The notes: generated by a model from the sequence alone, not told the origin. 64,000 nt of DNA from an uncultured Clostridia bacterium (GCA_945876935.1 CAMCQA010000003.1:7008-71007); one strand, 5' to 3'; counted from the stretch's first letter, positions 22,935 to 40,533 are shown. Numbers and translations are program-made.

Positions 22935-24236
<1,302 letters not shown>

Positions 24237-24281: not shown

Positions 24282-25037
24282 CTATTTATCAAAATTAACA
24301 ATCTTCGTAAATTTATTCCAGTTTAAACTAGCTCCACCAACTAAGGCTCCATCAATATTAGGCATAGTCAAAAGCTTCATGGCATTTTCATCATTTACGC
24401 TGCCACCATACTGAATAATAATTTTATCAGCTGATTCTTTATCATAAAGCTCTTCTATTTTATTTCTTATGAAAGCACACATTTCTTCCGCTTCTTCAGG
24501 TGTAGCAACCTTGCCAGTTCCTATTGCCCAAATAGGCTCATATGCTATAGTAACAAGACCTAATTCATCTTTAGAAATTCCAGCTAATCCCTTTTCAAGT
24601 TGATATGAAGAAACATCGAAAGCTTTTCCTTCTTCTCTTTCTTCTAAACTTTCTCCTATACATAGGATAGCTTCCATCTCAGATGCTATCAAAGCCCTAA
24701 CCTTATTATTGATTAGCTCATCAGATTCTCCAAAAATATTTCGTCTTTCGCTATGCCCTACTATAGAGCCCTTAACCTTCGCTGACTTTAGCATAGGTAT
24801 AGAAATCTCTCCAGTAAAAGCCCCTTCCTTTTCGAAGTAAACATTTTGAGCATAAATGTTAATACCTTTGCTTTGTAAAGCATCACTCATATATGATAAA
24901 TGAATAGATGGAGGACAAATACCTATTTTTACAGCAGATTTATTGTCTTCTTTTAAATCAATATCATTTATGAAAGACTTAACATCTTCCATATCTTTAA
25001 ACATCTTCCAGTTTCCAGCAATAAACTTATTTCTCAA
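24282..25037 (-). CDS. tpiA: Triosephosphate isomerase
   Basis: AGNWKM, GHSERR, AYEPIWAIGTG, YGGSV, LVGGASL. Confidence 0.98.
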   Translation of the reverse strand: MRNKFIAGNWKMFKDMEDVKSFINDIDLKEDNKSAVKIGICPPSIHLSYMSDALQSKGINIYAQNVYFEKEGAFTGEISIPMLKSAKVKGSIVGHSERRNIFGESDELINNKVRALIASEMEAILCIGESLEEREEGKAFDVSSYQLEKGLAGISKDELGLVTIAYEPIWAIGTGKVATPEEAEEMCAFIRNKIEELYDKESADKIIIQYGGSVNDENAMKLLTMPNIDGALVGGASLNWNKFTKIVNFDK

Positions 25038-25053: not shown

Positions 25054-26235
25054 TTATTTATCTTCCAAAGCTACAATACCTGGTAAAACCTTACCTTCTA
25101 GATATTCCATAGATGCTCCACCACCTGTTGATATATGAGTCATCTTATCTGATAAGCCAAACTGCTTAGCAGCTGCTGCACTGTCTCCTCCACCAACTAT
25201 TGTAATAGCATCGCTTTCTGCTAGTGCTTCTGCAAGACTTCTTGTACCTTTCTCAAAGTTTGGCATTTCAAAGACTCCAACAGGTCCATTCCAAATCACT
25301 GTATTAGCCTTTGATATAGCAGATTTGAATAGCTCTATGCTCTTTTCACCTATATCAAGACCCATCATGTCCACTGGAATCTTATCTGCATCCACAGATT
25401 TAATTTCTGTATCATTTTTGAACTCTTTACCACACAAAGTATCAACAGGAATTAAAAGCTCTACACCCTTTTCCTCAGCTTTCTTCATAAGACTTTCTGC
25501 TAAATCGATACTTTCTGCATCTAAAAGAGAATTTCCTATTTCATAGCCTTTTGCTTTAAAGAAAGTATATGCCATTCCTCCTCCGATTATTAACATATCT
25601 ACCTTTGAAAGCATGTTTTCAATAAGTTTTATTTTATCACTTACCTTTGAGCCTCCCATAATAGCTAACAGAGGACGCTTAGGCTCTTCAACTGCTTCTC
25701 CTAGATATTTAACTTCTTTTTCTATTAGGAGTCCTGATACAGCAGGAATGTAATCAGCTATACCAGCTGTTGAACAATGAGCTCTGTGGGCAGTACCAAA
25801 AGCATCATTTACAAATACATCACCTAATTCTGAAAGTTCTTTGGAGAAGGCTTCATCATTCTTAGTCTCCTCACTTCTGAATCTAACATTTTCTAGCAAG
25901 GCAACTCTTTCATTCATATCCGCAATTTCTGATTTAACCTTTTCATCAACAACTCTATCTGATTGAGCAAAAAGAACTGATTCATTAAGCAGCTCAGATA
26001 ATCTGTCAGCCACCTTTCTTAGTGAAAATTCTTCCTTAGGCTCACCCTTAGGTCTTCCCATATGAGACATGATAATAACTTTGCAACCCTCATCTAGAAG
26101 ATGCTTTATAGTAGGAAGAGCGGCTCTTATTCTTATATCATCTGTAATCTCTCCATCTACAACAGGAACGTTAAAATCACATCTAACTAATGCTTTTTTT
26201 CCTTTTAAATCAATATCTCTAATAGTCTTTTTCAT
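25054..26235 (-). CDS. pgk: Phosphoglycerate kinase
   Basis: [38 protein letters not shown]. Confidence 0.98.
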
Positions 26236-26313
26236 AAAATTCCACTTTCTATGCTATATTTGTAAATTTAAATTATGCCATTTACATATTTCTGCAAATG
26301 GCATAGATTTTTC

Positions 26314-27330
26314 TTATTTATTGTCAACGCTGTGCATATACTTCATAAGCTCTAAACACTTATTTGAATATCCGTATTCATTGTCATAGTATGCTACAAG
26401 TTTGAAGAACTTATCATTAAGTTCAATACCTTGTCTAGCATCGAAAATTGATGTATGTGAATCACCAATAAAGTCTAGAGAAACAACTTCATCATCCACA
26501 TATTCAAGAATACCCTTTAGATATGTTTCACTAGCTTCCTTAACCTTAGCACAAATTTCTTCATAGCTTGTTGGCTTTTCTAAAACTAGATTTAAATCTA
26601 CCAAAGAAACGTCAGCAGTAGGAACTCTATACGATATACCTGTCATCTTACCTTTTAAGTCTGGAATTACTAAACCAACAGCTTTAGCAGCACCAGTAGT
26701 TGTAGGTATGATATTACCAAATACTGATCTTCCTGTTCTCCAATCCTTCATCGATCTTGCATCCACAACTTTCTGCTTAGCTGTAGCAGCATGAATAGTG
26801 GACATAAGACCTTCCTTAATTCCCCAATTGTCATTGATTACCTTAGCTAAAGGAGCTAAGCAGTTTGTAGTACATGAAGCATTTGATACTACATGGTAAT
26901 CTGAAGTGTATTCTTCATTATTAACACCCATTACATATGTAGGTGTATCCTGATCTTTAGCTGGAGCTGAAATTATAACTTTCTTTGCTCCTGCCTTAAT
27001 GTGATCCATAGCTTTCTCAGTAGTAGTGTATGCTCCTGTACCTTCTAAGATATACTCTGCTCCGCATTCTGACCAAGGAATATCGATAGCCTGCTCACAG
27101 CTGTAAACAGGTATTTCCTTTCCATCTATTGTGATACCTTTATCATACTTTCCTACTTCTCCTGGAAATCTTCCAAAAGTTGAATCATATTTCAACATAT
27201 AAACTAAATAGTCTATATCAGCATTTCTAACATTTATTCCTCTAATATCTATTTCTGGGTCATTGTAAGCCGCTCTGATAACAACTCTACTAATTCTACC
27301 AAATCCGCTTATCCCAACTTTAACTGCCAT
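26314..27330 (-). CDS. gap: Glyceraldehyde-3-phosphate dehydrogenase (type I, atypical coenzyme residues)
   Basis: ASCTTNCLAP catalytic motif, NIIPTTTGAAKAV, YDNEYGYS. Confidence 0.96.
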   Translation of the reverse strand: MAVKVGISGFGRISRVVIRAAYNDPEIDIRGINVRNADIDYLVYMLKYDSTFGRFPGEVGKYDKGITIDGKEIPVYSCEQAIDIPWSECGAEYILEGTGAYTTTEKAMDHIKAGAKKVIISAPAKDQDTPTYVMGVNNEEYTSDYHVVSNASCTTNCLAPLAKVINDNWGIKEGLMSTIHAATAKQKVVDARSMKDWRTGRSVFGNIIPTTTGAAKAVGLVIPDLKGKMTGISYRVPTADVSLVDLNLVLEKPTSYEEICAKVKEASETYLKGILEYVDDEVVSLDFIGDSHTSIFDARQGIELNDKFFKLVAYYDNEYGYSNKCLELMKYMHSVDNK

Positions 27331-27378
27331 AATTTCCTCCTATGTAAAGTATTTCAGTTCGTAATATTTTCTCAGTAT

Positions 27379-27415
27379 ATTATAATACAATTTACCCATA
27401 CTTTTCAAGGGTAAA
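27379..27415 (-). promoter_or_regulatory. Promoter of the gap operon with an overlapping inverted repeat
   Basis: TTGAAA (27403-27408), 18 bp spacer, TATAAT (27379-27384); TTTACCC-N11-GGGTAAA at 27391-27415. Confidence 0.55.
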
Positions 27416-28068: not shown

Positions 28069-29757
28069 ATGGCATTTGATGGATTTCTAACAAGAGGAAT
28101 AAGAAATGAGTTATCAAAACTTCTAGTTGGTGGAAGAATAGATAAAATATATCATCCTAGCAGGTTTGATCTAATATTTGTTATCCACAATAATAAAGAA
28201 AAGTACAAGTTGATGATTTCGGCTGATTCCAGCCATTTCGGAGTTTATATTACAGATGAAAACTATGAGAACCCTAAGACTCCTAGTTCTTTTAATATGC
28301 TTTTAAGAAAGCATCTATCCGGTGGAAAAATACTTGGTATAAATCAAGTTGAATGGGAAAGAATTTTAGAAATATCTATCGAATGTAAAGATGAGATGGG
28401 CTATTTCATAGAAAAAAAGTTAATTGTTGAAATCATGAATAAACATAGTAATGTAATAATCACAAATGCCCAAGATAACAAAATCATAGATGCCATGAAA
28501 AGAGTTTCTATAGATACTAGCTCTGTAAGACAGCTTCTTCCGTCAATGATATATGACTATCCACCTAGTCAAAATAAAATCTCACCTGAATCATTTATTT
28601 TATTAGATACTAAAGATATTGAAAGCTTTAGGACTCATAAAGATATTTTAAACAGTGTATGTGGAATTTCGCCAGCTATGGCTATAAACTTATTCGAAAG
28701 TTCTAATTCACAAAGTCTTATGAAAGATTATATTGAAAAATTAAACAGCGATAGTCTTGAGAGCATCGTTTATTTGGATAAAGACAAAACTCCGAAAGAT
28801 TTCCACACTCTTCCTTTAAATAACCTAGAGTCGCTAAGCAAAGTGTCCTTTGATAACATAAGTAAAGGCATAAGCTACTATTATTCTCATAGAGAGGATA
28901 GCAATAGGCTCAGACAGAAATCTTCCGCTCTTGAAAAGACTTTAAAAGCTCACATAAAAAAACTTACATTAAAACAATCGAGGCTTTTAGATGATATGGA
29001 TAAAGCTAGAAGAGCTGAAATATATCAGCTATATGGAGAGTTATTAACAGCTAATCTTCATATCATAAAAGATAGCAGCAAGCCTGCTAGAGTTTTCAAT
29101 TACTACGACAATACGGAAATTGAGATTCCTATGGATGGAAAACTATCTCCTGTAAAAAACTCTCAAAACTACTTTAAAAAGTTCAATAAATCTAAAAGAG
29201 CTCTGATAGAGAAAGAGAATCAGCTTGAGAGTACAGCGATAGAACTTTCTTATCTTTCTACTACACTAGATCTACTTCAACTTGCAGATAGTGTTGCAAC
29301 AATAGATGAAATAAAAGATGAGCTTATGGATGCTGGATATATTAAGGAAAGAAAGGCCGATAATAGAGGTAAAAAATCTGCAAAACGAGATTTACTATCT
29401 TATGTTTCTCCAACCGGAAAAAAAGTGTTCGTGGGAAGAAATAATAAGGAGAATGATTATCTTTCAACTAAGTATGCGTCAAACTCTGATCTATGGTTTC
29501 ATACTAAAGATATATCGGGCTCTCATGTAATTTTATCTCTAGAAGGAAAGGCACCTGAAGATGATGATATAGTATTTGCTAGTCAACTTGCTGCTTACCA
29601 CAGCAAAGGTAGACTATCTGAAAATGTTCCAGTAGATTATACCTACATAAAGTACGTAAAGAAACCTAAAGGTGCTAAGCTTGGCATGGTCATATTTACC
29701 GATAATAAGACGATTTATGTTAATCCAGCCAACATTGAAAGTCAAGTTCAAAATTGA
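28069..29757 (+). CDS. rqcH: Ribosome quality control protein RqcH (FbpA/NFACT family)
   Basis: MAFDG, MLLRKHL, EIMNKHSN, VGRNNKEND, WFHTKDISGSHV, VPVDYT. Confidence 0.93.
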   Translation: MAFDGFLTRGIRNELSKLLVGGRIDKIYHPSRFDLIFVIHNNKEKYKLMISADSSHFGVYITDENYENPKTPSSFNMLLRKHLSGGKILGINQVEWERILEISIECKDEMGYFIEKKLIVEIMNKHSNVIITNAQDNKIIDAMKRVSIDTSSVRQLLPSMIYDYPPSQNKISPESFILLDTKDIESFRTHKDILNSVCGISPAMAINLFESSNSQSLMKDYIEKLNSDSLESIVYLDKDKTPKDFHTLPLNNLESLSKVSFDNISKGISYYYSHREDSNRLRQKSSALEKTLKAHIKKLTLKQSRLLDDMDKARRAEIYQLYGELLTANLHIIKDSSKPARVFNYYDNTEIEIPMDGKLSPVKNSQNYFKKFNKSKRALIEKENQLESTAIELSYLSTTLDLLQLADSVATIDEIKDELMDAGYIKERKADNRGKKSAKRDLLSYVSPTGKKVFVGRNNKENDYLSTKYASNSDLWFHTKDISGSHVILSLEGKAPEDDDIVFASQLAAYHSKGRLSENVPVDYTYIKYVKKPKGAKLGMVIFTDNKTIYVNPANIESQVQN

Positions 29758-29870: not shown

Positions 29871-31112
29871 TTACTTTTTTGCCTTTGCTTTAGTCTCTTC
29901 AATATTCTTCATAGACTCTATAATAGCATCTGCAAGAGAGTGCATATCATTAGCATTAGCCTCATTCAAAGAAGTATTTAAAGTAACTCTATCGTTTAGA
30001 ACATCAACCATCTTTAATCTTTCATTGACGAACTCTTCAATTCTATCTCCAACAGTACATGCCCATGTTCCGTTTTCAATAATACCTAGCGTTCTATTTT
30101 GAACGTTAAGAGCTTCTAAATCCATAATGAAGTTTTTCATCACAGGATAAATTTCTAGATTGTATGTAACAGATGCTAAAACTATATGAGAATACTTAAA
30201 AGTATCTGCAATCAGTTGAGACATATGTGTATTTGAAACATCGTGAACTACAACATTAGTCATACCTTTTTCACAAAGCTCAGTTGCTAGAGCCTGTGCA
30301 GCATGTTCAGTATTACCATACATTGATGCATATGCAATCATTACACCCTGCTCTTCTGGTTCATATCTGCTCCACTTATCATATTTTTCAATGATATATC
30401 CAAAGTCATTTCTCCAAACTGGTCCATGAAGAGGACAAATATACTTAATATCTAAAGTAGCAGCCTTCTTCAAAACATCCTGAACGAAAGGACCATACTT
30501 ACCAACAATATTAGTATAGTATCTTCTAGCATCATCTAACCAATCTCTATCAAAGTTAACTTCATCGTTAAATAGCTTACCATCTAGAGCACCAAATGTT
30601 CCAAAAGCATCTGCAGCCATCAATACGCCATCTTTCAAGTCATAGCTTAGAAGAACTTCTGGCCAATGAACCATAGGAGCTTCTACGAAAGCGTAAGTGT
30701 GAGCTCCGAAAGAGAAAGTATCTCCCTCTTTTACTATAATCTGCTCATGATTATCAATAGCTTTAAATCCAATTTGTCTCATGATTTCAAAAGCCTGTTC
30801 GCTACTTATTAGCTTAACTTCTGGGTATCTTAAACAAACTTCTTCAACAGCGCCTCCATGGTCAGGCTCCATATGATGAACCACCATATAATCTAGAGGT
30901 CTTCCATCTAAAACATCTTCTATATTCTTTAAAAATTCTTTAGTTGCTGACCAATCCACTGAATCAAACAATACAGTCTTCTCATCAAGAAGCAGGTAAG
31001 AGTTATACGATACTCCTCTAGGTATTGGGAATATATTTTCAAATAAAGCCAGCCTGTGATCGTTTGCACCTATCCAATATAGGTCATCTGTAACTTTTCT
31101 AACTGTATACAT
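29871..31112 (-). CDS. fprA: Flavodiiron protein (FprA, metallo-beta-lactamase plus flavodoxin)
   Basis: Di-iron ligand motifs HMEPDH, VHWPE, ADAFG, PLHGP; flavodoxin YASMYGNT. Confidence 0.94.
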   Translation of the reverse strand: MYTVRKVTDDLYWIGANDHRLALFENIFPIPRGVSYNSYLLLDEKTVLFDSVDWSATKEFLKNIEDVLDGRPLDYMVVHHMEPDHGGAVEEVCLRYPEVKLISSEQAFEIMRQIGFKAIDNHEQIIVKEGDTFSFGAHTYAFVEAPMVHWPEVLLSYDLKDGVLMAADAFGTFGALDGKLFNDEVNFDRDWLDDARRYYTNIVGKYGPFVQDVLKKAATLDIKYICPLHGPVWRNDFGYIIEKYDKWSRYEPEEQGVMIAYASMYGNTEHAAQALATELCEKGMTNVVVHDVSNTHMSQLIADTFKYSHIVLASVTYNLEIYPVMKNFIMDLEALNVQNRTLGIIENGTWACTVGDRIEEFVNERLKMVDVLNDRVTLNTSLNEANANDMHSLADAIIESMKNIEETKAKAKK

Positions 31113-34515: not shown

Positions 34516-37500
34516 TTATTTAACTACTTTTTTCCTGCTAACAACAAATAAACCTAACGATGCGCATAATAAGGATGCCAGTATTCCTAAATCCATGTTA
34601 TCTCCTGTCTTTGGAGCCTTAACAGGTATTTTTTTATTCAGCACAGTCTCTTCTAAAACTTTACCATTTTCCCTAATTGAAAATTCGTAAGTTTTATCAT
34701 TTTTGAAGAATCCTTTAAGCTCTTTTGTTTCCTTAACCTTATAATCTCCATAAACTAGGTCTTCAAAAGCTACAACTCCATTTGCATCTGTCACTTTCGT
34801 ATCTATTATCTTATCATTCTGAATTAATGCAAATTCAACACCCTGAAGTTTATTTCCCTTTTCATCGACCTTATTTATAATGATAGTACCCTTTTTAAGA
34901 GTATTATAGAATTCTTCTAAATCTACTAGCTCTCCATCTTTTCTGATGCTTACATCTCTTATCTCTTCTGATAGATTATAGTTTTCCAGTGTACTCTTTT
35001 CCTTCAACTGATAATCTCCATACAGTATATCCTCAAAGGTTGCTACTCCATCTTCTCCTGTAGTTGCTTCATAGACTTCCTTATCATCTTGCATCAATAC
35101 AAATGTTACTCCTGCAAGCTTCTTATCTTTGTCATATGCATCTACCTTAGTTACCTTCACACTTCCCTTCTTTATCTGGTTTGTGAAGTCTCCTAGATCT
35201 ATTAGCTCCCCTTCTTTTCTGATGCTTACATCTCTTATCTCTTCTGATAGATTGTAGTTTTCAAGTGTACTCTTTTCCTTTAGAGTATAGTCTCCGTAGA
35301 CTATGTCTTCAAAGGTTGCTACCCCATCTTCTCCTGTAGTTGCTTCATAGACTTCCTTATCAGTTTGCATCAACACGAATGTTACTCCTTCAAGCTTCTT
35401 ATCTTTATTATCAGCATCTACCTTAGTTACCTTCACACTTCCCTTCTTTATCTGGTTTGTGAAGTCTCCTAGATCTATTAGCTCTCCATCTTTCCTGATG
35501 CTTACATCTCTTATCTCTTCTGATAGATTGTAGTTTTCCAGTGTACTCTTTTCCTTTAGAGTATAGTCTCCGTAAACTACACCTTCAAAGGTTGCTACTC
35601 CATCTTCTCCTGTAGTTGCTTCATAGACTTCCTTATCGGCCTGCATCAATACGAATGTTACTCCTGCAAGCTTCTTATCTTTATCCTCTGCATCTACTTT
35701 CGTTACCTTCACATTTCCCTTCTTTATCTGGTTTGATATTTCTCCAAGATTTATAATCTGCTTATCTTGGGTTATTGATATATCAGTACTTTCAAAAGCG
35801 TTTTCTTCTGGAAGGTTATAGTTGTCTAATGTTCCTGTTTCTACAAGCTTATATTCTCCATAAACAACATCTTCAAATGTTACAGTACCATCATTTTTAG
35901 AAACTGCTTCATATTTTTTCTGATTATTTTGTCTAAGTTCAAAAGTAACATTAACTAAAGCCTTATCAGAATCATCTGCATCTACTTTCTTAAAAGTAAC
36001 ACTGCCTTTTTTCATTTTATTAGATACAGTTCCTAAGTCTTCTGTAACCTGATCTTCTGTTATAGATATTGGCCTTTCTGTATCATCTAAAACGTAGTTA
36101 TCTAGTGTCGCTTTCTCAACAACTATATAATCACCATAAGGAACATCTTCAAATAAAGCTACTCCATCAACATCAGTCTTTGCCGTAGCTACTTCAGTCT
36201 TCTTGTTTCCTTCGACCTTTTTTAATGAGAACTCTACTCCTTTGAGTTTTATCTGTTGGTTATCAGCATCAACTTTAGTTAACCTTATATGGCCTTTTTT
36301 TATAATGTTGGAAACTATACCAGCATTAATTGTTTCACCATCTGTATCTACATTAACATTAAGCGTTATATCTGAAGGTAAATAACCTTCCTTTGGCGTC
36401 TTTTCTGTTATTGTATATTCTCCAAATACCACATTCTCAAAAGTAGCTATGCCTTTATCATCGGTAGTTGCTGTAGCAATTTCATTTCCATCCTTATTTA
36501 AAGAGAAAACTACTCCTGATAAAACCTTTGTGTTATCATCTCCATCCACTTTCTTAACCTGTACATCGGACTTTATTTTGTTATTTATCCAGTTCCCCAA
36601 AGATATAGCGTCGTCACCATTTTCAGTTATATTTACGCTCTTAACCATATCGCTTAAAGCGTATCCTTCTAAAGTTTCTATCTCTTTTATCTTATACTGT
36701 CCATAACTAACATTTTCAAAAGTAACAACTCCATCTTGGTTTGATGTAGCTTCAAATATAGGTGTATTTAAATCATTTTCTTTAAATAATCCAAACTTTA
36801 CACCACTTAACTTATTTGTAGTTTCATCCTCGTTATCACCATCAATCTTTACAAAAGTAATATTTCTCTTGATAGGTTTGTTCTCTATCGTCTGAACTTC
36901 TAAATCATCTTCTCCAACAGTTACATCTCTACCATTCTTCTCTATAATGTCATATCCTTCCAGAGCTTTCGTTTCTACAATTTTATATTCTCCAAAAGGA
37001 ATATTCTTAAAGACAGCTTTACCTGTCGCATCCGTTTCTACAGTGTCTACAGTTTCTTCACCTTTCATAAGCTTAAACTCTACACCTGATAAAGCTTTCT
37101 TTATTCCATTCTCATCTGCTTCCGATGATGTTTTTAATATTTCAACATCTCTATTAACAGATACTATACCAGCATTGATAATAGCTGAGTTTGAAATAGG
37201 ATTTAATACAAAGGAATGAGACATTCCATAATTAGTACCTTCCGGCTTTTCCTCTACATTGTTTTGATCTATTTTCTTTCCAAAGTTATCTGTGAATACA
37301 TCAGTATCATCTCTTGTAAACCTTACTTTATAGTTACCTCTCTTGTATACGGACATTGTGTATCTTCCAGATGCATCTGTAGTAGCTGTAATGAAGTTTC
37401 CTTCTGCATCTTTTACAGGTGCTCCTGTATCAGCATCTATTAACTCTACTTTTCTTCCAGAAACACCGTCTTCTCTAGTAGAAAGGTTACCATCTTTATT

Positions 37501-40422
37501 AAAATCTTTAAAATACTTACCTGTAACTAAATATTTTTCAAAGGTTACTTTAACTTTGTTTCCTTCAACGAATATATTTGAATCTGTTGAAATGGCAGAC
37601 GAATTTATTGCAAAGTCTCCAGGCGAAAGAGTCTTATCATAAGGAATCTTACTCTTTACTAAAAAGTTCACAGTTTCCTTAACAGCTATTTGTTTACCTT
37701 CTTTAAGGACGAACTTAAAGCTTGTTACTTTGCTAAAATCATTAACTTGGTCTTTTGTTACCCACTGTCCATCTCTAACATTTTCAATAGTATCTCTAGG
37801 ACCGACCTGATAAAATATATCAAACTTCTCTAAAACTGCAGCGTTTTCCGGTGCATCTTCTATAGCACCACTGAGAGGTGTATTGAATACAGACCCTCTT
37901 TTTAGGTATTCATTAGCCTGATTCGGTACAATTACCGTATCTTGAGCGTAAGGAAGCTTATCTATAACATAAGCTGAACTCGCTTCTTCTATAGTATTAT
38001 TAAATATAGAAATATTGTAATAGAAGTCTTCTCCAAGATCACCTGTTGCAACAAGTCCTAAAGAGTCTTTTGTAAAACCTACCTCTTTCTTTATTAGAAG
38101 CTCCAGTGGTGGAGTATAAGTAATATTTGAAGAAACGCCCATAAAGTATTCTTCTCTGTCTCCATCTCCATCTAAATCTAAATCATCTTTGTAGGCTCTC
38201 TGATTGTAGAAAGATACAATATTCTTATTATCCGGATAAACTATATAGCTATCTATTTGGTTGGCACCTCTCTTAGCATAAGGCGATACTTCCACTCTTG
38301 TTGATATACCAAAATCATCTAAACCAATATCTGATGGTAGCACCTTAGGCACAGTATATATAACAGCTGTTCTGCCAGTATTTTTAAAGTTTTCAATAAC
38401 CTCAGGAGCTCCTATTTTCTCACCGTTATACCAATACGCACTATTAGTTGATGCATAGTTAAAAGCCGGCGGTAAAAGCTGAATTACCTTTACATTCTCA
38501 ATCGGCTTATCAACAAGGGGTCCCCACAAGCCATAATCCGCACGAAATCTTCCTTCTGTAGCATAATTAACAAAAGTACCAGACTTGGAATAGCTTACCT
38601 GTTGATCTCCTGTAGCTGAAATATCAGACTTTGGCTCTATAGGAGAAAGGCTCGTATATGCATAGTCTCCGTTATGTGTATTATTAGCCTTTTGGTCATC
38701 ATTAATTTTATTTAGAAAATCACTTGTCGAAGTAGCTGTTGCTCTTCCACCATAAGTTTGTTTTGTCTTATATGTTTTATTTGCAAACTTTTCTAGTTCT
38801 GCTTTTGAAGGAAACTCATGAGTAACTATTCTAAATCCTGCATCATCTAAAATAATTGGCTCTTTCAAAACTAAATCTAGTGCCTTATATTTTCCTTCCG
38901 TATCATTTATATCTACTTTTTCTTCAAATTGAACATTTTCTCTTATTACTTCTCTAGTACCATCATCTTTAATACCATAAAGTGTGTTTCCAGAGTTAAG
39001 CTGGTTTATAACATTTTCCTTGTATGTTTTAAACTCAGCATCAGTATATGAATCTCCATCTTTATAAAAATCTTTAATCTGATAGTACTTATAATAAACT
39101 CTCTTATCATTAGCTTGCTTTGATAATACGTCTCCCATATTGAATAGCTTTGTTACTATACCATTTTTCTTATTATCAAAACTTGATCCATTATTACTGT
39201 TTCTAAAGGTAGTCTGATAAACAAGACCTTCAGCTGTTTGGTCATTTTTTCTATCATATATAACCCCATCATGTATAGCATAATTACCATCTGCTATATC
39301 AAATTTTATAGGGTCTGTGCCAGCTCCATTTAAATTATCCTTATGTATAAAAAGTCCACCTGTTGGTGAAAAAGGAATTCCTTTAAACTGAACTTTCATT
39401 GCCCTATCGCTGAACTTTCTTTGTGTTGGAAGTCCTGCATCTACATAATACTCTGCACTTATATCATAAGGGGTATCTAAAGCTTTATTCTTAAATACGA
39501 AGTGGGGCCAATAAGTTCTTCCAGGGTTACCATCTCTCCGTCCACTATGATAATAGTTTGGTGCCGGGTTATTATCAATAAAAGTTGCTGTCTTTGCAAC
39601 TGGATCATAAATCCAGTCTCTTTTATAAGCTTCTGCAGGCTCAACACCTTCAGGTAAGTGTACAACAATTTTAAGGTTTGTAGGTTTTACAAATGAGACT
39701 GTTCCATCAAACCCCTTAGTAACCTCAACAACTTCTGAGAATCCAACTTCCACATCTCTTCCTGGCTCACCTGTTGTATTCTGTCCTTCCAAAGTGTTTA
39801 CATTGTAATGATATATTTTTGTAGTATCGTCAAACCTATTATATCCATAAGGATGTATAGCTGAATTAGAATATTCAAATTCATTTTTTAAAGCCTTGTA
39901 AGTCTTAGTTGTGCTATATAGCTTAGGCATATTTTTAAAATCTATGGATTCATCGTTAGCATCCACCATATCTAGCTTAATTATTTCAGTATCTCCGTTT
40001 CTTGTAGGCTCTTCCCTAAATTTAAAAGGAAACTGAAAAGTCATAAGATTACCGCCCGTCAGCTCTCTAAATTTATAAATTACATACCAGTTTTCTTCAT
40101 CCTCAAGTCTCTTTGTCTCATATGAGTTCTGTGAGTCTACAAATGTAGGCTTCTCTACTCTACCTCCATTCTTAGGAACTGTCAGAACTATCCATGGGTT
40201 TTTAATGCTTACGCCAGAACCTGAAATTTTAACATTTGCAGCTGCTGGAATAGTTTTATTTACCCAAAAGTCTGTGTCATGGGTTATTGTTGACCCATCA
40301 AAATTGATTATGGACAAATCAACTCTTAAAGTTTCATCTGCATACGCAAAGTTGCTAAATACAGATAAAATCATAAGAAATGCAAGAAGTCCACTTATCA
40401 GCTTCTGTCTTAATCCATTCAT
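34516..40422 (-). CDS. Large sortase-anchored adhesin with an SdrD-B-like domain and about 9 SpaA/CnaB-type repeats
   Basis: Signal peptide; repeated K-V-D...GVxFxL...G-Y...E...GY/NY...N modules; APKTGD, TM helix and RKK tail. Start 40422 follows AAAGGAG. Confidence 0.88.
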   Translation of the reverse strand: MNGLRQKLISGLLAFLMILSVFSNFAYADETLRVDLSIINFDGSTITHDTDFWVNKTIPAAANVKISGSGVSIKNPWIVLTVPKNGGRVEKPTFVDSQNSYETKRLEDEENWYVIYKFRELTGGNLMTFQFPFKFREEPTRNGDTEIIKLDMVDANDESIDFKNMPKLYSTTKTYKALKNEFEYSNSAIHPYGYNRFDDTTKIYHYNVNTLEGQNTTGEPGRDVEVGFSEVVEVTKGFDGTVSFVKPTNLKIVVHLPEGVEPAEAYKRDWIYDPVAKTATFIDNNPAPNYYHSGRRDGNPGRTYWPHFVFKNKALDTPYDISAEYYVDAGLPTQRKFSDRAMKVQFKGIPFSPTGGLFIHKDNLNGAGTDPIKFDIADGNYAIHDGVIYDRKNDQTAEGLVYQTTFRNSNNGSSFDNKKNGIVTKLFNMGDVLSKQANDKRVYYKYYQIKDFYKDGDSYTDAEFKTYKENVINQLNSGNTLYGIKDDGTREVIRENVQFEEKVDINDTEGKYKALDLVLKEPIILDDAGFRIVTHEFPSKAELEKFANKTYKTKQTYGGRATATSTSDFLNKINDDQKANNTHNGDYAYTSLSPIEPKSDISATGDQQVSYSKSGTFVNYATEGRFRADYGLWGPLVDKPIENVKVIQLLPPAFNYASTNSAYWYNGEKIGAPEVIENFKNTGRTAVIYTVPKVLPSDIGLDDFGISTRVEVSPYAKRGANQIDSYIVYPDNKNIVSFYNQRAYKDDLDLDGDGDREEYFMGVSSNITYTPPLELLIKKEVGFTKDSLGLVATGDLGEDFYYNISIFNNTIEEASSAYVIDKLPYAQDTVIVPNQANEYLKRGSVFNTPLSGAIEDAPENAAVLEKFDIFYQVGPRDTIENVRDGQWVTKDQVNDFSKVTSFKFVLKEGKQIAVKETVNFLVKSKIPYDKTLSPGDFAINSSAISTDSNIFVEGNKVKVTFEKYLVTGKYFKDFNKDGNLSTREDGVSGRKVELIDADTGAPVKDAEGNFITATTDASGRYTMSVYKRGNYKVRFTRDDTDVFTDNFGKKIDQNNVEEKPEGTNYGMSHSFVLNPISNSAIINAGIVSVNRDVEILKTSSEADENGIKKALSGVEFKLMKGEETVDTVETDATGKAVFKNIPFGEYKIVETKALEGYDIIEKNGRDVTVGEDDLEVQTIENKPIKRNITFVKIDGDNEDETTNKLSGVKFGLFKENDLNTPIFEATSNQDGVVTFENVSYGQYKIKEIETLEGYALSDMVKSVNITENGDDAISLGNWINNKIKSDVQVKKVDGDDNTKVLSGVVFSLNKDGNEIATATTDDKGIATFENVVFGEYTITEKTPKEGYLPSDITLNVNVDTDGETINAGIVSNIIKKGHIRLTKVDADNQQIKLKGVEFSLKKVEGNKKTEVATAKTDVDGVALFEDVPYGDYIVVEKATLDNYVLDDTERPISITEDQVTEDLGTVSNKMKKGSVTFKKVDADDSDKALVNVTFELRQNNQKKYEAVSKNDGTVTFEDVVYGEYKLVETGTLDNYNLPEENAFESTDISITQDKQIINLGEISNQIKKGNVKVTKVDAEDKDKKLAGVTFVLMQADKEVYEATTGEDGVATFEGVVYGDYTLKEKSTLENYNLSEEIRDVSIRKDGELIDLGDFTNQIKKGSVKVTKVDADNKDKKLEGVTFVLMQTDKEVYEATTGEDGVATFEDIVYGDYTLKEKSTLENYNLSEEIRDVSIRKEGELIDLGDFTNQIKKGSVKVTKVDAYDKDKKLAGVTFVLMQDDKEVYEATTGEDGVATFEDILYGDYQLKEKSTLENYNLSEEIRDVSIRKDGELVDLEEFYNTLKKGTIIINKVDEKGNKLQGVEFALIQNDKIIDTKVTDANGVVAFEDLVYGDYKVKETKELKGFFKNDKTYEFSIRENGKVLEETVLNKKIPVKAPKTGDNMDLGILASLLCASLGLFVVSRKKVVK
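34894..35721 (-). repeat. Three near-identical 276-bp (92-aa) tandem repeats in the adhesin stalk
   Basis: The anchor TACATCTCTTATCTCTTCTGATAG recurs at 34951, 35227 and 35503 (period 276). Confidence 0.93.
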
Positions 40423-40533
40423 ATATACTCCTTTCAAAACAGGTTTATTATTACTAACTTAACACTTATAGTTTATACACACTATACAAGTATTAAAACC
40501 TATTTTATTTACATCAAATTCATTATTTATGTG

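What the first reader, a model, noticed from the sequence alone, without database searches (positions are those of the whole stretch)
26314..27330. Glycolytic-operon GAPDH with NADP-type coenzyme determinants and a non-Bacillus lineage signature
Seen in sequence (checked in DNA): Rossmann motif ISGFGRISR instead of INGFGRIGR; INVRN where NAD-specific enzymes have IND (Asp32 to Val, followed by Arg); VDARSMKDWR where E. coli has VDGPSHKDWR and Bacillus has LDLPHKD (positions 187-188 become Ala-Arg). Established: Asp32, residue 187 and Pro188 discriminate against NADP, and NADP-using GapB and chloroplast enzymes change these sites. The KDWRxGR loop and YMLKYDST resemble E. coli GapA/Bacteroidetes enzymes more than Bacillus GapA. 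Inference: a possibly horizontally acquired NADP-preferring or dual-specific GAPDH sits in the core gap-pgk-tpi-eno operon, coupling the pathway to NADPH or serving gluconeogenesis.
Basis: partly seen in the sequence, partly recalled or inferred. Interest (0 to 1): 0.58.

Follow-up and report, generated by a model that had tools for sequence, protein, structure and literature searches.

The report
Sole GAPDH with NADP-type cofactor pocket
The only glyceraldehyde-3-phosphate dehydrogenase of this small gut-type anaerobe has lost the residues that tie the enzyme to NAD and gained two arginines where NADP's extra phosphate would sit, so it probably works with NADP(H); this is a family-wide inherited variant, not a recent gene transfer, and no one has assayed it.

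Summary
Window 26314-27330 (minus strand) encodes a 338-aa type I GAPDH. Its catalytic Cys and His are intact, and it reads ISGFGRISR, INVRN and VDARSMKDWR.

It is the only GAPDH in a 98.8%-complete 1.29-Mb Anaerovoracaceae genome, and there is no GapN.

The "non-Bacillus" look is ordinary. E. coli-like GAPDHs with canonical INDPF/VDGPS were found in 93 of 300 sampled Clostridia genomes. Ours belongs to a monophyletic clade ("type C") nested among them and found in 60 of 121 sampled Anaerovoracaceae genera, usually in the same trmL-gap-pgk-tpi position. Recent horizontal transfer is therefore not supported.

Type C differs from its NAD-type sisters mainly around the adenosine-ribose pocket:
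- Asp32-Pro33-Phe34 has become hydrophobic-Arg-Asn.
- Pro188 has become Arg or Lys.

At least 47 of 60 type-C genomes also keep a canonical NAD-type paralog, and 11, including this one, do not.

This genome has lost PFK (a clean syntenic deletion) and pyruvate kinase. It keeps FBPase, PPDK and aldolase, so flux here is probably gluconeogenic. Its congener keeps PFK and PK with the same sole enzyme.

Best reading: an NADP(H)-using, possibly dual-specific, GAPDH. This is untested biochemically. Interest is moderate. First readers of this scan noted the same paralog type on other genomes.

The parts
26314..27330 (-). gap: 338-aa type I phosphorylating GAPDH, 'type C' variant, the only GAPDH of the genome
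   Evidence: ORF and translation. TIGR01534 407 bits against a cut-off of 367.2. Single hit in the whole genome.
27286..27312 (-). Glycine-rich loop ISGFGRISR. Bst Asn6 is Ser here, and the third Gly of GxGxxG is Ser.
   Evidence: Among the 120 closest homologs the third position is Gly in 63, Ser in 36 and Ala in 20.
27223..27231 (-). Codons gtt-aga-aat = Val34-Arg35-Asn36 (Bst 32-34), replacing the Asp-Pro-Phe of the closest NAD-type relatives
   Evidence: DNA; position 33 is Arg in 51 of 52 type-C sequences against Pro in 26 of 27 relatives. Position 32 is Val/Tyr/Trp/Ile and others against Asp in 27 of 27.
26755..26760 (-). Codons gca-aga = Ala191-Arg192 (Bst 187-188) in the S-loop, replacing Gly-Pro
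   Evidence: position 188 is Arg in 44 and Lys in 6 of 52 type-C sequences against Pro in 27 of 27 relatives.
26872..26874 (-). Catalytic Cys153 (Bst Cys149) within SNASCTTNC
27379..27408 (-). Promoter-like site TTGAAA-18-TATAAT (11 of 12 matches) between trmL and gap. A GGAGGA ribosome-binding site lies at 27335-27340.
   Evidence: This is a consensus match only; the count of such sites in the region is not above the shuffled controls.
26274..26305 (-). 13-bp hairpin with a weak T-tail between gap and pgk; possibly a partial terminator or an mRNA-stabilising stem
   Evidence: pattern scan only
25054..26235 (-). pgk (phosphoglycerate kinase)
   Evidence: 598 bits to the PGK half of the PGK/TIM model
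24282..25037 (-). tpiA (triose-phosphate isomerase)
   Evidence: TIGR00419 197 bits against a cut-off of 130.6
22935..24227 (-). eno (enolase)
   Evidence: TIGR01060 699.5 bits
27467..27964 (-). trmL (tRNA 2'-O-methyltransferase), the conserved upstream neighbour of type-C gap across the family
   Evidence: The order trmL-gapC-pgk-tpi, with or without an inserted second gap gene, is seen in 28 of 51 type-C loci.

Best explanation
This is the organism's single, housekeeping, phosphorylating GAPDH. It belongs to an Anaerovoracaceae-specific clade ("type C") that descends from the E. coli-like GAPDH common in Clostridia.

In this clade the adenosine-ribose pocket has been rebuilt:
- The Asp32 carboxylate, which hydrogen-bonds the 2'-OH of NAD and repels a 2'-phosphate, is replaced by a hydrophobic residue (Val here).
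- Pro33 is replaced by Arg.
- Pro188, on the S-loop of the neighbouring subunit, is replaced by Arg.

Inference: Arg33 and Arg188' clamp the 2'-phosphate, so the enzyme uses NADP(H), either preferentially or alongside NAD(H).

In most related genomes type C sits next to, or alongside, a canonical NAD-type GAPDH. That is a GapA/GapB-like division of labour. In this genome the NAD-type copy is absent. PFK and pyruvate kinase are also gone, while FBPase, PPDK and aldolase remain. Here the enzyme therefore most likely runs in the gluconeogenic direction, reducing 1,3-bisphosphoglycerate with NADPH.

Shown: gene identity, sole copy, residue changes and their conservation, phylogeny, synteny and pathway gene content. 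Inferred: cofactor preference and flux direction.
For: Identity and copy number:
- TIGR01534 scores above its cut-off and the catalytic residues are intact.
- There is one hit in the genome.
- The only large aldehyde dehydrogenase is MdlD-like, not GapN.

Pocket:
- The top clade-discriminating columns against the nearest NAD-type relatives are Bst 32-35 (DPFI to [V/Y/W/I]-R-N-A), 188 (P to R/K), 181, 195, 98-99 and 77.
- Arg33 is present in 51 of 52 type-C sequences and Arg/Lys188 in 50 of 52.

Literature:
- E. coli GapA D34L/A/K mutants lose about 100-fold or more in NAD Km and gain NADP activity.
- Natural NADP enzymes of H. pylori and Neisseria carry Lys or Arg at 188.
- G188T/P189K confers NADP activity (PMC9145139).
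- Residue 188 contacts the 2'-phosphate across the R axis, and residue 33 affects NADPH affinity (PMC3728087).

Natural co-variation: the one type-C lineage that regained Asp32 (G067: DLN) also lost Arg33 and Arg188 (to Glu).

Paralog pattern: at least 47 of 60 type-C genomes also hold a canonical IND/P188 GAPDH, sometimes in tandem.

Direction in this genome:
- No PFK or PK.
- PFK is cleanly deleted inside contig C29 relative to the congener.
- FBPase III, PPDK and class II aldolase are present.
- A review states that NADP-GAPDH is mainly gluconeogenic where alternatives exist (PMC4518329).
Against: - No enzyme of this clade has been assayed, and I found no paper on one.
- In E. coli GapA the simple combination D34A/G188V/P189R gave a poor enzyme with either cofactor, so these residues alone do not guarantee good NADP use.
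- Type C is the sole GAPDH in species that keep PFK and PK, such as congener G109 at 88% identity, and G015. The enzyme must carry glycolysis there. That would make NADPH the glycolytic product unless it is dual-specific.
- Arg77, a 2'-phosphate ligand in chloroplast GapA, is Glu here.
- Absence of PK does not by itself prove gluconeogenic flux, because PPDK is reversible.
Confidence: 0.6

Rival explanations
1. An ordinary NAD-dependent glycolytic GAPDH. On this view the changes at 32-34 and 188 are lineage-specific drift, compensated elsewhere, and NAD(H) remains the physiological cofactor.
For: It is the sole GAPDH in several genomes that keep PFK and PK. It holds the core operon position. 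Position 32 varies widely (V, Y, W, I, L, K, N, Q). Triple mutants in E. coli GapA did not yield an NADP-preferring enzyme.
Against: Every tested replacement of this Asp in E. coli GapA cut NAD kcat/Km from 5500 to about 7-16 per mM per s. Arg33 and Arg/Lys188 are under strong conservation. They are lost together exactly where Asp32 returns (G067). Most type-C genomes retain a separate canonical NAD-type copy.
Confidence: 0.22
2. One reading: a recently and horizontally acquired foreign GAPDH (E. coli- or Bacteroidetes-like) that replaced the native Firmicute gene in the operon.
For: Identity to E. coli GapA is higher (55%) than to the family's Bacillus-type GapA (48%). The best PDB hits are eukaryotic or E. 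coli-type.
Against: E. coli-like GAPDH with INDPF/VDGPS is found in 93 of 300 sampled Clostridia genomes. Type C is monophyletic (support 0.90) and nested in that clostridial clade (0.94; sister L154 at 1.0). It is present in 60 of 121 genera of the family, mostly in the same trmL-gap-pgk-tpi position. GC and GC3 match the neighbouring genes.
Confidence: 0.04
3. A GAPDH homolog with a changed substrate or a non-glycolytic role, for example an erythrose-4-phosphate dehydrogenase-like enzyme.
For: The S-loop/Ps-site columns 181 (Thr to Lys) and 195 (Gly to Thr) also differ from relatives. There is a long stem branch and faster evolution within the clade.
Against: It is the only GAPDH in a genome that keeps pgk, tpi, eno, fba and fbp. 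It is co-oriented with pgk-tpi-eno. The Cys, the His and the TGAAKAVG and YRVPT motifs are retained. The E4PDH models score far lower (about 270 bits against 407).
Confidence: 0.03

Closest known systems
Bacillus subtilis and Staphylococcus aureus GapB (NADP-dependent, gluconeogenic phosphorylating GAPDH, EC 1.2.1.13)
   Same: Asp32 is lost and the S-loop 187/188 is altered. The enzyme usually co-exists with an NAD-type paralog, and in this genome the gene context is gluconeogenic.
   Different: Independent origin: type C is nested in the clostridial E. coli-like clade, not the Bacillus-type clade. It uses Arg33 plus Arg188 rather than the residues reported for GapB. It occupies the core gap-pgk-tpi operon and can be the only GAPDH. 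The GapB sequences themselves were not available here for direct alignment.
NADP-dependent GAPDHs of Helicobacter pylori and Neisseria (Lys/Arg at position 188), as summarised in PMC9145139
   Same: A basic residue replaces Pro188 on the S-loop.
   Different: A different lineage. I could not align them here, so the state of positions 32-33 in those enzymes was not compared.
Clostridial E. coli-like NAD-type GAPDH (INDPF ... VDGPSKKDWRGGR), for example locus L154
   Same: 57-64% identity, the same length and the same fold. This is the direct phylogenetic parent group.
   Different: These keep Asp32-Pro33-Phe34 and Gly187-Pro188. Type C has replaced all of them.
Engineered E. coli GapA variants (D34A/K, G188T/P189K, G188V/P189R)
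   Same: The same scaffold class (55% identity to E. coli GapA) and the same positions altered.
   Different: The engineered enzymes stayed NAD-preferring or became poor with both cofactors. The natural clade carries about 20 further co-varying changes, at 98-99, 77, 181, 195 and elsewhere, that may be the missing compensations.
Chloroplast GapA/B and algal plastid GapC1 (NADP(H)-using Calvin-cycle GAPDH)
   Same: Residue 188 is changed from Pro so as to contact the 2'-phosphate. GapC1 also arose from a cytosolic-type (E. coli/eukaryote-like) GAPDH and often lacks Asp32.
   Different: The plastid enzymes use Ser188, Thr33 and Arg77. Here position 188 is Arg, 33 is Arg and 77 is Glu. There is no CP12 or redox-regulation context.

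Membership tests
Type I phosphorylating GAPDH (TIGR01534; Pfam PF00044 + PF02800) | Profile score above the curated cut-off over the full length | tested here: met
   407 bits against a cut-off of 367.2, covering residues 4-326. Both Pfam domains are precomputed for P0001.
Type I phosphorylating GAPDH (TIGR01534; Pfam PF00044 + PF02800) | Catalytic Cys149 and His176, and the phosphate-site motifs (Thr179, Thr208-Gly209, Arg231) | tested here: met
   SNASCTTNC, STIHAAT, TTGAAKAVG and YRVPT are all present.
Type I phosphorylating GAPDH (TIGR01534; Pfam PF00044 + PF02800) | GAP/1,3-BPG oxidoreductase activity | not testable with these tools
   Needs an enzyme assay. The context (sole copy, gap-pgk-tpi-eno) argues for it.
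NAD-specific GAPDH (EC 1.2.1.12) | Acidic residue (Asp32) at the end of beta-2 binding the adenosine ribose hydroxyls | tested here: not met
   Val at this position. It is Asp in 27 of 27 nearest NAD-type relatives.
NAD-specific GAPDH (EC 1.2.1.12) | Pro188 on the S-loop | tested here: not met
   Arg. It is Pro in 27 of 27 relatives.
NADP-using phosphorylating GAPDH (EC 1.2.1.13 / 1.2.1.59; GapB-like in function) | Loss of Asp32, and a polar or basic residue at 188 able to contact the 2'-phosphate | tested here: met
   Val32, Arg33 and Arg188. Literature basis.
NADP-using phosphorylating GAPDH (EC 1.2.1.13 / 1.2.1.59; GapB-like in function) | Measured preference for, or efficient use of, NADP(H) | not testable with these tools
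NADP-using phosphorylating GAPDH (EC 1.2.1.13 / 1.2.1.59; GapB-like in function) | Co-existence with a separate NAD-type GAPDH (division of labour) | tested here: inconclusive
   Met in at least 47 of 60 related type-C genomes. Not met in this genome or in 10 others, where type C is the only GAPDH.
E. coli GapA equivalog (NCBIfam NF011954 / PRK15425) | Score above the curated equivalog cut-off | tested here: not met
   406 bits against a cut-off of 662. It is the best-fitting sub-model, but the protein is not a member.
GapN (non-phosphorylating NADP-GAPDH, aldehyde dehydrogenase superfamily) | Aldehyde dehydrogenase fold (PF00171) | tested here: not met
   P0001 has the GAPDH fold. The genome's one full-length Aldedh protein matches MdlD-like models best and the archaeal GapN model only weakly (140 bits against a cut-off of 780).

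The most novel reading that the evidence does not exclude
A whole clade of gut and oral anaerobes (type C, 60 of 121 sampled Anaerovoracaceae genera) carries a naturally evolved NADP(H)-preferring GAPDH on the E. coli-like scaffold. It would use an Arg33/Arg188' clamp that arose independently of GapB and of the plastid enzymes. In the lineages where it is the only GAPDH and PFK and PK are kept (for example the congener G109), glycolysis itself would then deliver NADPH rather than NADH. No oxidative pentose-phosphate pathway was found in any of the 121 sampled genomes.
Probability: 0.35. Interest if true: 0.55.

Novelty: new member of a known kind. Interest (0 to 1): 0.4.

Why it matters
NADP-linked phosphorylating GAPDHs are known, but only a few lineages have been characterised. 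Attempts to turn E. coli GapA into an NADP-preferring enzyme have stalled (PMC9145139). A natural enzyme 55% identical to E. coli GapA, carrying a conserved set of about 20 co-varying changes around the cofactor pocket, would be a ready template for cofactor engineering.

Biologically, it would show how a large, mostly uncultured family of amino-acid-fermenting gut and oral anaerobes that lacks glucose-6-phosphate dehydrogenase links central carbon metabolism to NADPH. It would also give a third, independent example of GAPDH cofactor switching.

For genome annotation it is a caution. These genes are all named "type I GAPDH", and metabolic models will assign them NAD.

Tried and rejected
- **Recent horizontal transfer:** rejected on phylogeny, synteny and composition.
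- **"Type C is a purely gluconeogenic GapB analogue":** weakened. All nine near-complete PFK-less genomes in the family sample carry type C. However, the congener G109 and G015 have PFK, PK and FBPase with type C as the sole GAPDH. G076 is similar, with PFK and FBPase, though no PK was found. The PFK association is also confounded by shared ancestry.
- **A complementary pattern between type C and the oxidative pentose-phosphate pathway:** no signal. G6PD was not found in any of the 121 family genomes.
- **NfnAB as a transhydrogenase partner:** only a GltD/NfnB-like domain inside a 1180-aa ORF, below the family cut-off. Inconclusive.
- **Naming organisms through cluster look-ups:** gave almost no names.
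- **The 50%-identity representative library:** gave many fragments and fusions. It was useful only to show further xR/xR clusters such as P0123 (ARN/SR) and P0125 (LRK/SR).
- **Literature searches for a characterised member of this clade:** nothing found.
- **Structure prediction:** not run. The tools return no coordinates, so the Arg-to-2'-phosphate distances could not be measured, and the fold is not in doubt at about 60% identity to solved GAPDHs.
- **Direct alignment to B. subtilis GapB and to the H. pylori and Neisseria enzymes:** not possible, because their sequences could not be obtained by reference.

Full report
**1. Observation**

The finding's coordinates are exact, but the gene lies on the minus strand. 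Window 26314-27330 (minus) is one 338-aa ORF, and the plus strand is closed.

The protein matches type I GAPDH (TIGR01534, 407 bits against a cut-off of 367.2). It keeps the catalytic SNASCTTNC (Cys153) and His180.

They can be read directly in the DNA:
- gtt-aga-aat at 27231-27223 encodes Val-Arg-Asn, at positions 32-34 in B. stearothermophilus (Bst) numbering.
- gca-aga at 26760-26755 encodes Ala-Arg, at Bst positions 187-188.
- The glycine-rich loop reads ISGFGRISR.

Downstream on the same strand lie pgk, tpi, eno and RNase R. Upstream lies trmL. A good sigma-70-like site (TTGAAA-18-TATAAT) and a GGAGGA ribosome-binding site precede gap. A 13-bp hairpin lies between gap and pgk.

**2. Whose genome, and how many GAPDHs**

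The window belongs to a 1.29-Mb assembly that is 98.8% complete. The closest named homologs are Anaerovoracaceae MAGs.

The genome has exactly one type I GAPDH. Its only full-length aldehyde dehydrogenase is MdlD-like, not GapN.

**3. Lineage**

- 55% identity to E. coli GapA.
- 48% identity to a Bacillus-type GapA of the same family.
- The best PDB hits are eukaryotic or E. coli-type enzymes.

This is ordinary for Clostridia. In an even sample of 300 genomes of the class, 93 have a homolog at E <= 1e-100. Outside Anaerovoracaceae these are 50-64% identical to ours. The 26 best of them that I read all carry canonical INDPF and VD[G/A]PS...WR.

In a tree, the Anaerovoracaceae variant ("type C") behaves as follows:
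- It is monophyletic (SH-like support 0.90).
- It is nested within this clostridial clade (C+D support 0.94).
- Its immediate sister is L154, an NAD-type enzyme (support 1.0).
- It has a long stem branch (0.22) and roughly double the within-clade divergence.

GC and GC3 of gap equal those of pgk, tpi and eno. Recent horizontal acquisition is therefore not supported. An ancient transfer between clostridial lineages cannot be excluded.

**4. Family-wide picture**

Across 121 sampled genera of the family there are three GAPDH types:
- **Type A:** Bacillus-like (INDIT / LDLPHKDLRRARAA).
- **Type B:** Streptococcus-like (INDLT / LDGPHRKGDLRRARAG).
- **Type C:** ours (IN-x-RN / VD-x-[R/K]S-KDWR-GR).

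Types A and B both keep Asp32, and type B keeps Pro188.

Type C occurs in 60 genera. It is the usual occupant of the position just upstream of pgk-tpi. The order trmL-gapC-pgk-tpi, with or without an inserted second gap gene, is seen in 28 of 51 loci, and gapC-pgk in 10 more.

Copy-number pattern among the 60 type-C genomes:
- At least 47 also hold a type A or type B gene. It can be in tandem (gapC-gapA-pgk), inserted between pgk and tpi, or elsewhere.
- Eleven genomes have type C only. These include this one, its congener G109 (88% identity) and the closed 1.1-Mb genome G076.
- Two remain unresolved.

**5. What distinguishes type C**

I compared 52 type-C sequences with 27 nearest NAD-type relatives. 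The columns with no residue overlap between the groups are:

| Bst position | NAD-type relatives | Type C |
|---|---|---|
| 33 | Pro | Arg (51 of 52) |
| 34 | Phe | Asn |
| 35 | Ile | Ala |
| 188 | Pro | Arg or Lys (50 of 52) |
| 181 | Thr | Lys |
| 195 | Gly | Thr or Arg |
| 50 | His | Phe |

Close behind come:
- Position 32, which changes from Asp to Val, Tyr, Trp, Ile and other residues.
- Positions 98-99, which change from Val-Phe to Ala-Tyr.
- Position 77.

Most of these line the adenosine-ribose end of the cofactor site or the S-loop that covers it from the neighbouring subunit.

One type-C lineage, G067, has regained Asp32. It has at the same time lost Arg33 (now Leu) and Arg188 (now Glu). 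This natural co-variation suggests that the three positions act as a unit.

**6. What is established about these positions**

- Asp32 hydrogen-bonds the 2'-OH of NAD, and residue 188 of the R-axis neighbour contacts the 2'-phosphate of NADP. Thr33 affects NADPH affinity (PMC3728087).
- In E. coli GapA every replacement of this Asp (A, K, L, P, N) cut NAD kcat/Km from 5500 to about 7-16 per mM per s, and most of them (A, K, L, P) gave NADP activity.
- The natural NADP enzymes of H. pylori and Neisseria carry Lys or Arg at 188. G188T/P189K added NADP activity to the E. coli enzyme (PMC9145139).
- The same paper shows a limit. D34A/G188V/P189R was a poor enzyme with both cofactors, so the motif alone is not sufficient.
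- C. acetobutylicum GapC, a characterised clostridial enzyme, makes NADH (PMC4669385).

I found no assay of any type-C enzyme.

**7. Physiology in this genome**

| Enzyme | Result |
|---|---|
| PFK (PF00365) | not found |
| Pyruvate kinase (PF00224) | not found |
| G6PD | not found |
| Class III FBPase | present |
| PPDK | present |
| Class II aldolase | present |

The congener G109 has PFK, PK and FBPase. The flanks of its PFK gene map to one G000 contig (C29) with 247 bp between them instead of 1174 bp. That is a clean deletion. tblastn with G109's PFK and PK finds nothing in G000.

So this species has recently lost the irreversible glycolytic steps and kept the gluconeogenic ones. Its sole GAPDH most likely reduces 1,3-BPG.

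The type-C pocket long pre-dates that loss. The same enzyme is the only GAPDH in relatives that keep both PFK and PK. It must therefore be able to carry glycolytic flux there, which favours either dual specificity or NADPH-yielding glycolysis.

All nine near-complete PFK-less genomes in the sample carry type C. These are few independent events, so I treat this as suggestive only. G6PD was not found in any of the 121 genomes, so it does not discriminate.

**8. Verdict**

The cofactor inference is reasonable and strengthened by comparative evidence, but it is unproven. The horizontal-transfer inference is not supported.

This is best filed as an uncharacterised, independently evolved member of the known class of NADP-type phosphorylating GAPDHs, here serving as the sole enzyme in a gluconeogenic genome. 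First-reader notes elsewhere in this scan describe the same paralog type in other genomes, either in tandem with an NAD-type copy or stand-alone. None had been followed up.

Noticed in passing
G000 contig C29:9953-10200 (outside the window); compare L180:5917-7091: The PFK gene present in the congener G109 is cleanly deleted here: 247 bp lie between conserved flanks instead of 1174 bp. Pyruvate kinase is also missing from the assembly. This species appears to have recently become unable to run classical glycolysis.
   Followed up: yes
L070 (genome G067), type-C gap gene: One type-C lineage has reverted to Asp32 (GINDLN) and has at the same time lost Arg33 and Arg188 (VDAES). It is the sole GAPDH of a PFK-containing 1.1-Mb genome. 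It is a natural control for cofactor assays.
   Followed up: partly
L038, L045, L047, L095 (genomes G004, G031, G028, G005): In these relatives a second, Streptococcus-like gap gene (type B) is inserted between pgk and tpi, giving trmL-gapC-pgk-gapB-tpi. This is an unusual operon arrangement.
   Followed up: no
window 26274-26305 (-): A 13-bp hairpin with a weak T-tract lies between gap and pgk. It could set a gap:pgk expression ratio as a partial terminator or an RNA-stability element.
   Followed up: no
G000 contig C21:12200-13420 (locus L173): A GltD/NfnB-like NADPH-binding domain (340 bits, below the TIGR01316 cut-off) sits at the end of a 1180-aa ORF. This is a possible fused NADPH-linked oxidoreductase that could connect to NADP(H) balance.
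   Followed up: no
window 34516-40437 (-): A very long ORF (1973 aa, TTG start), not examined.
   Followed up: no
window 29871-31112 (-) and 28069-29757 (+): A flavorubredoxin/flavodiiron-like gene (weak matches to NorV-type models) and an RqcH/fibronectin-binding-type ribosome-rescue gene flank the trmL-gap operon.
   Followed up: no
Family sample: Glucose-6-phosphate dehydrogenase was not found in any of 121 sampled Anaerovoracaceae genomes. The whole family apparently lacks the oxidative pentose-phosphate route to NADPH.
   Followed up: partly
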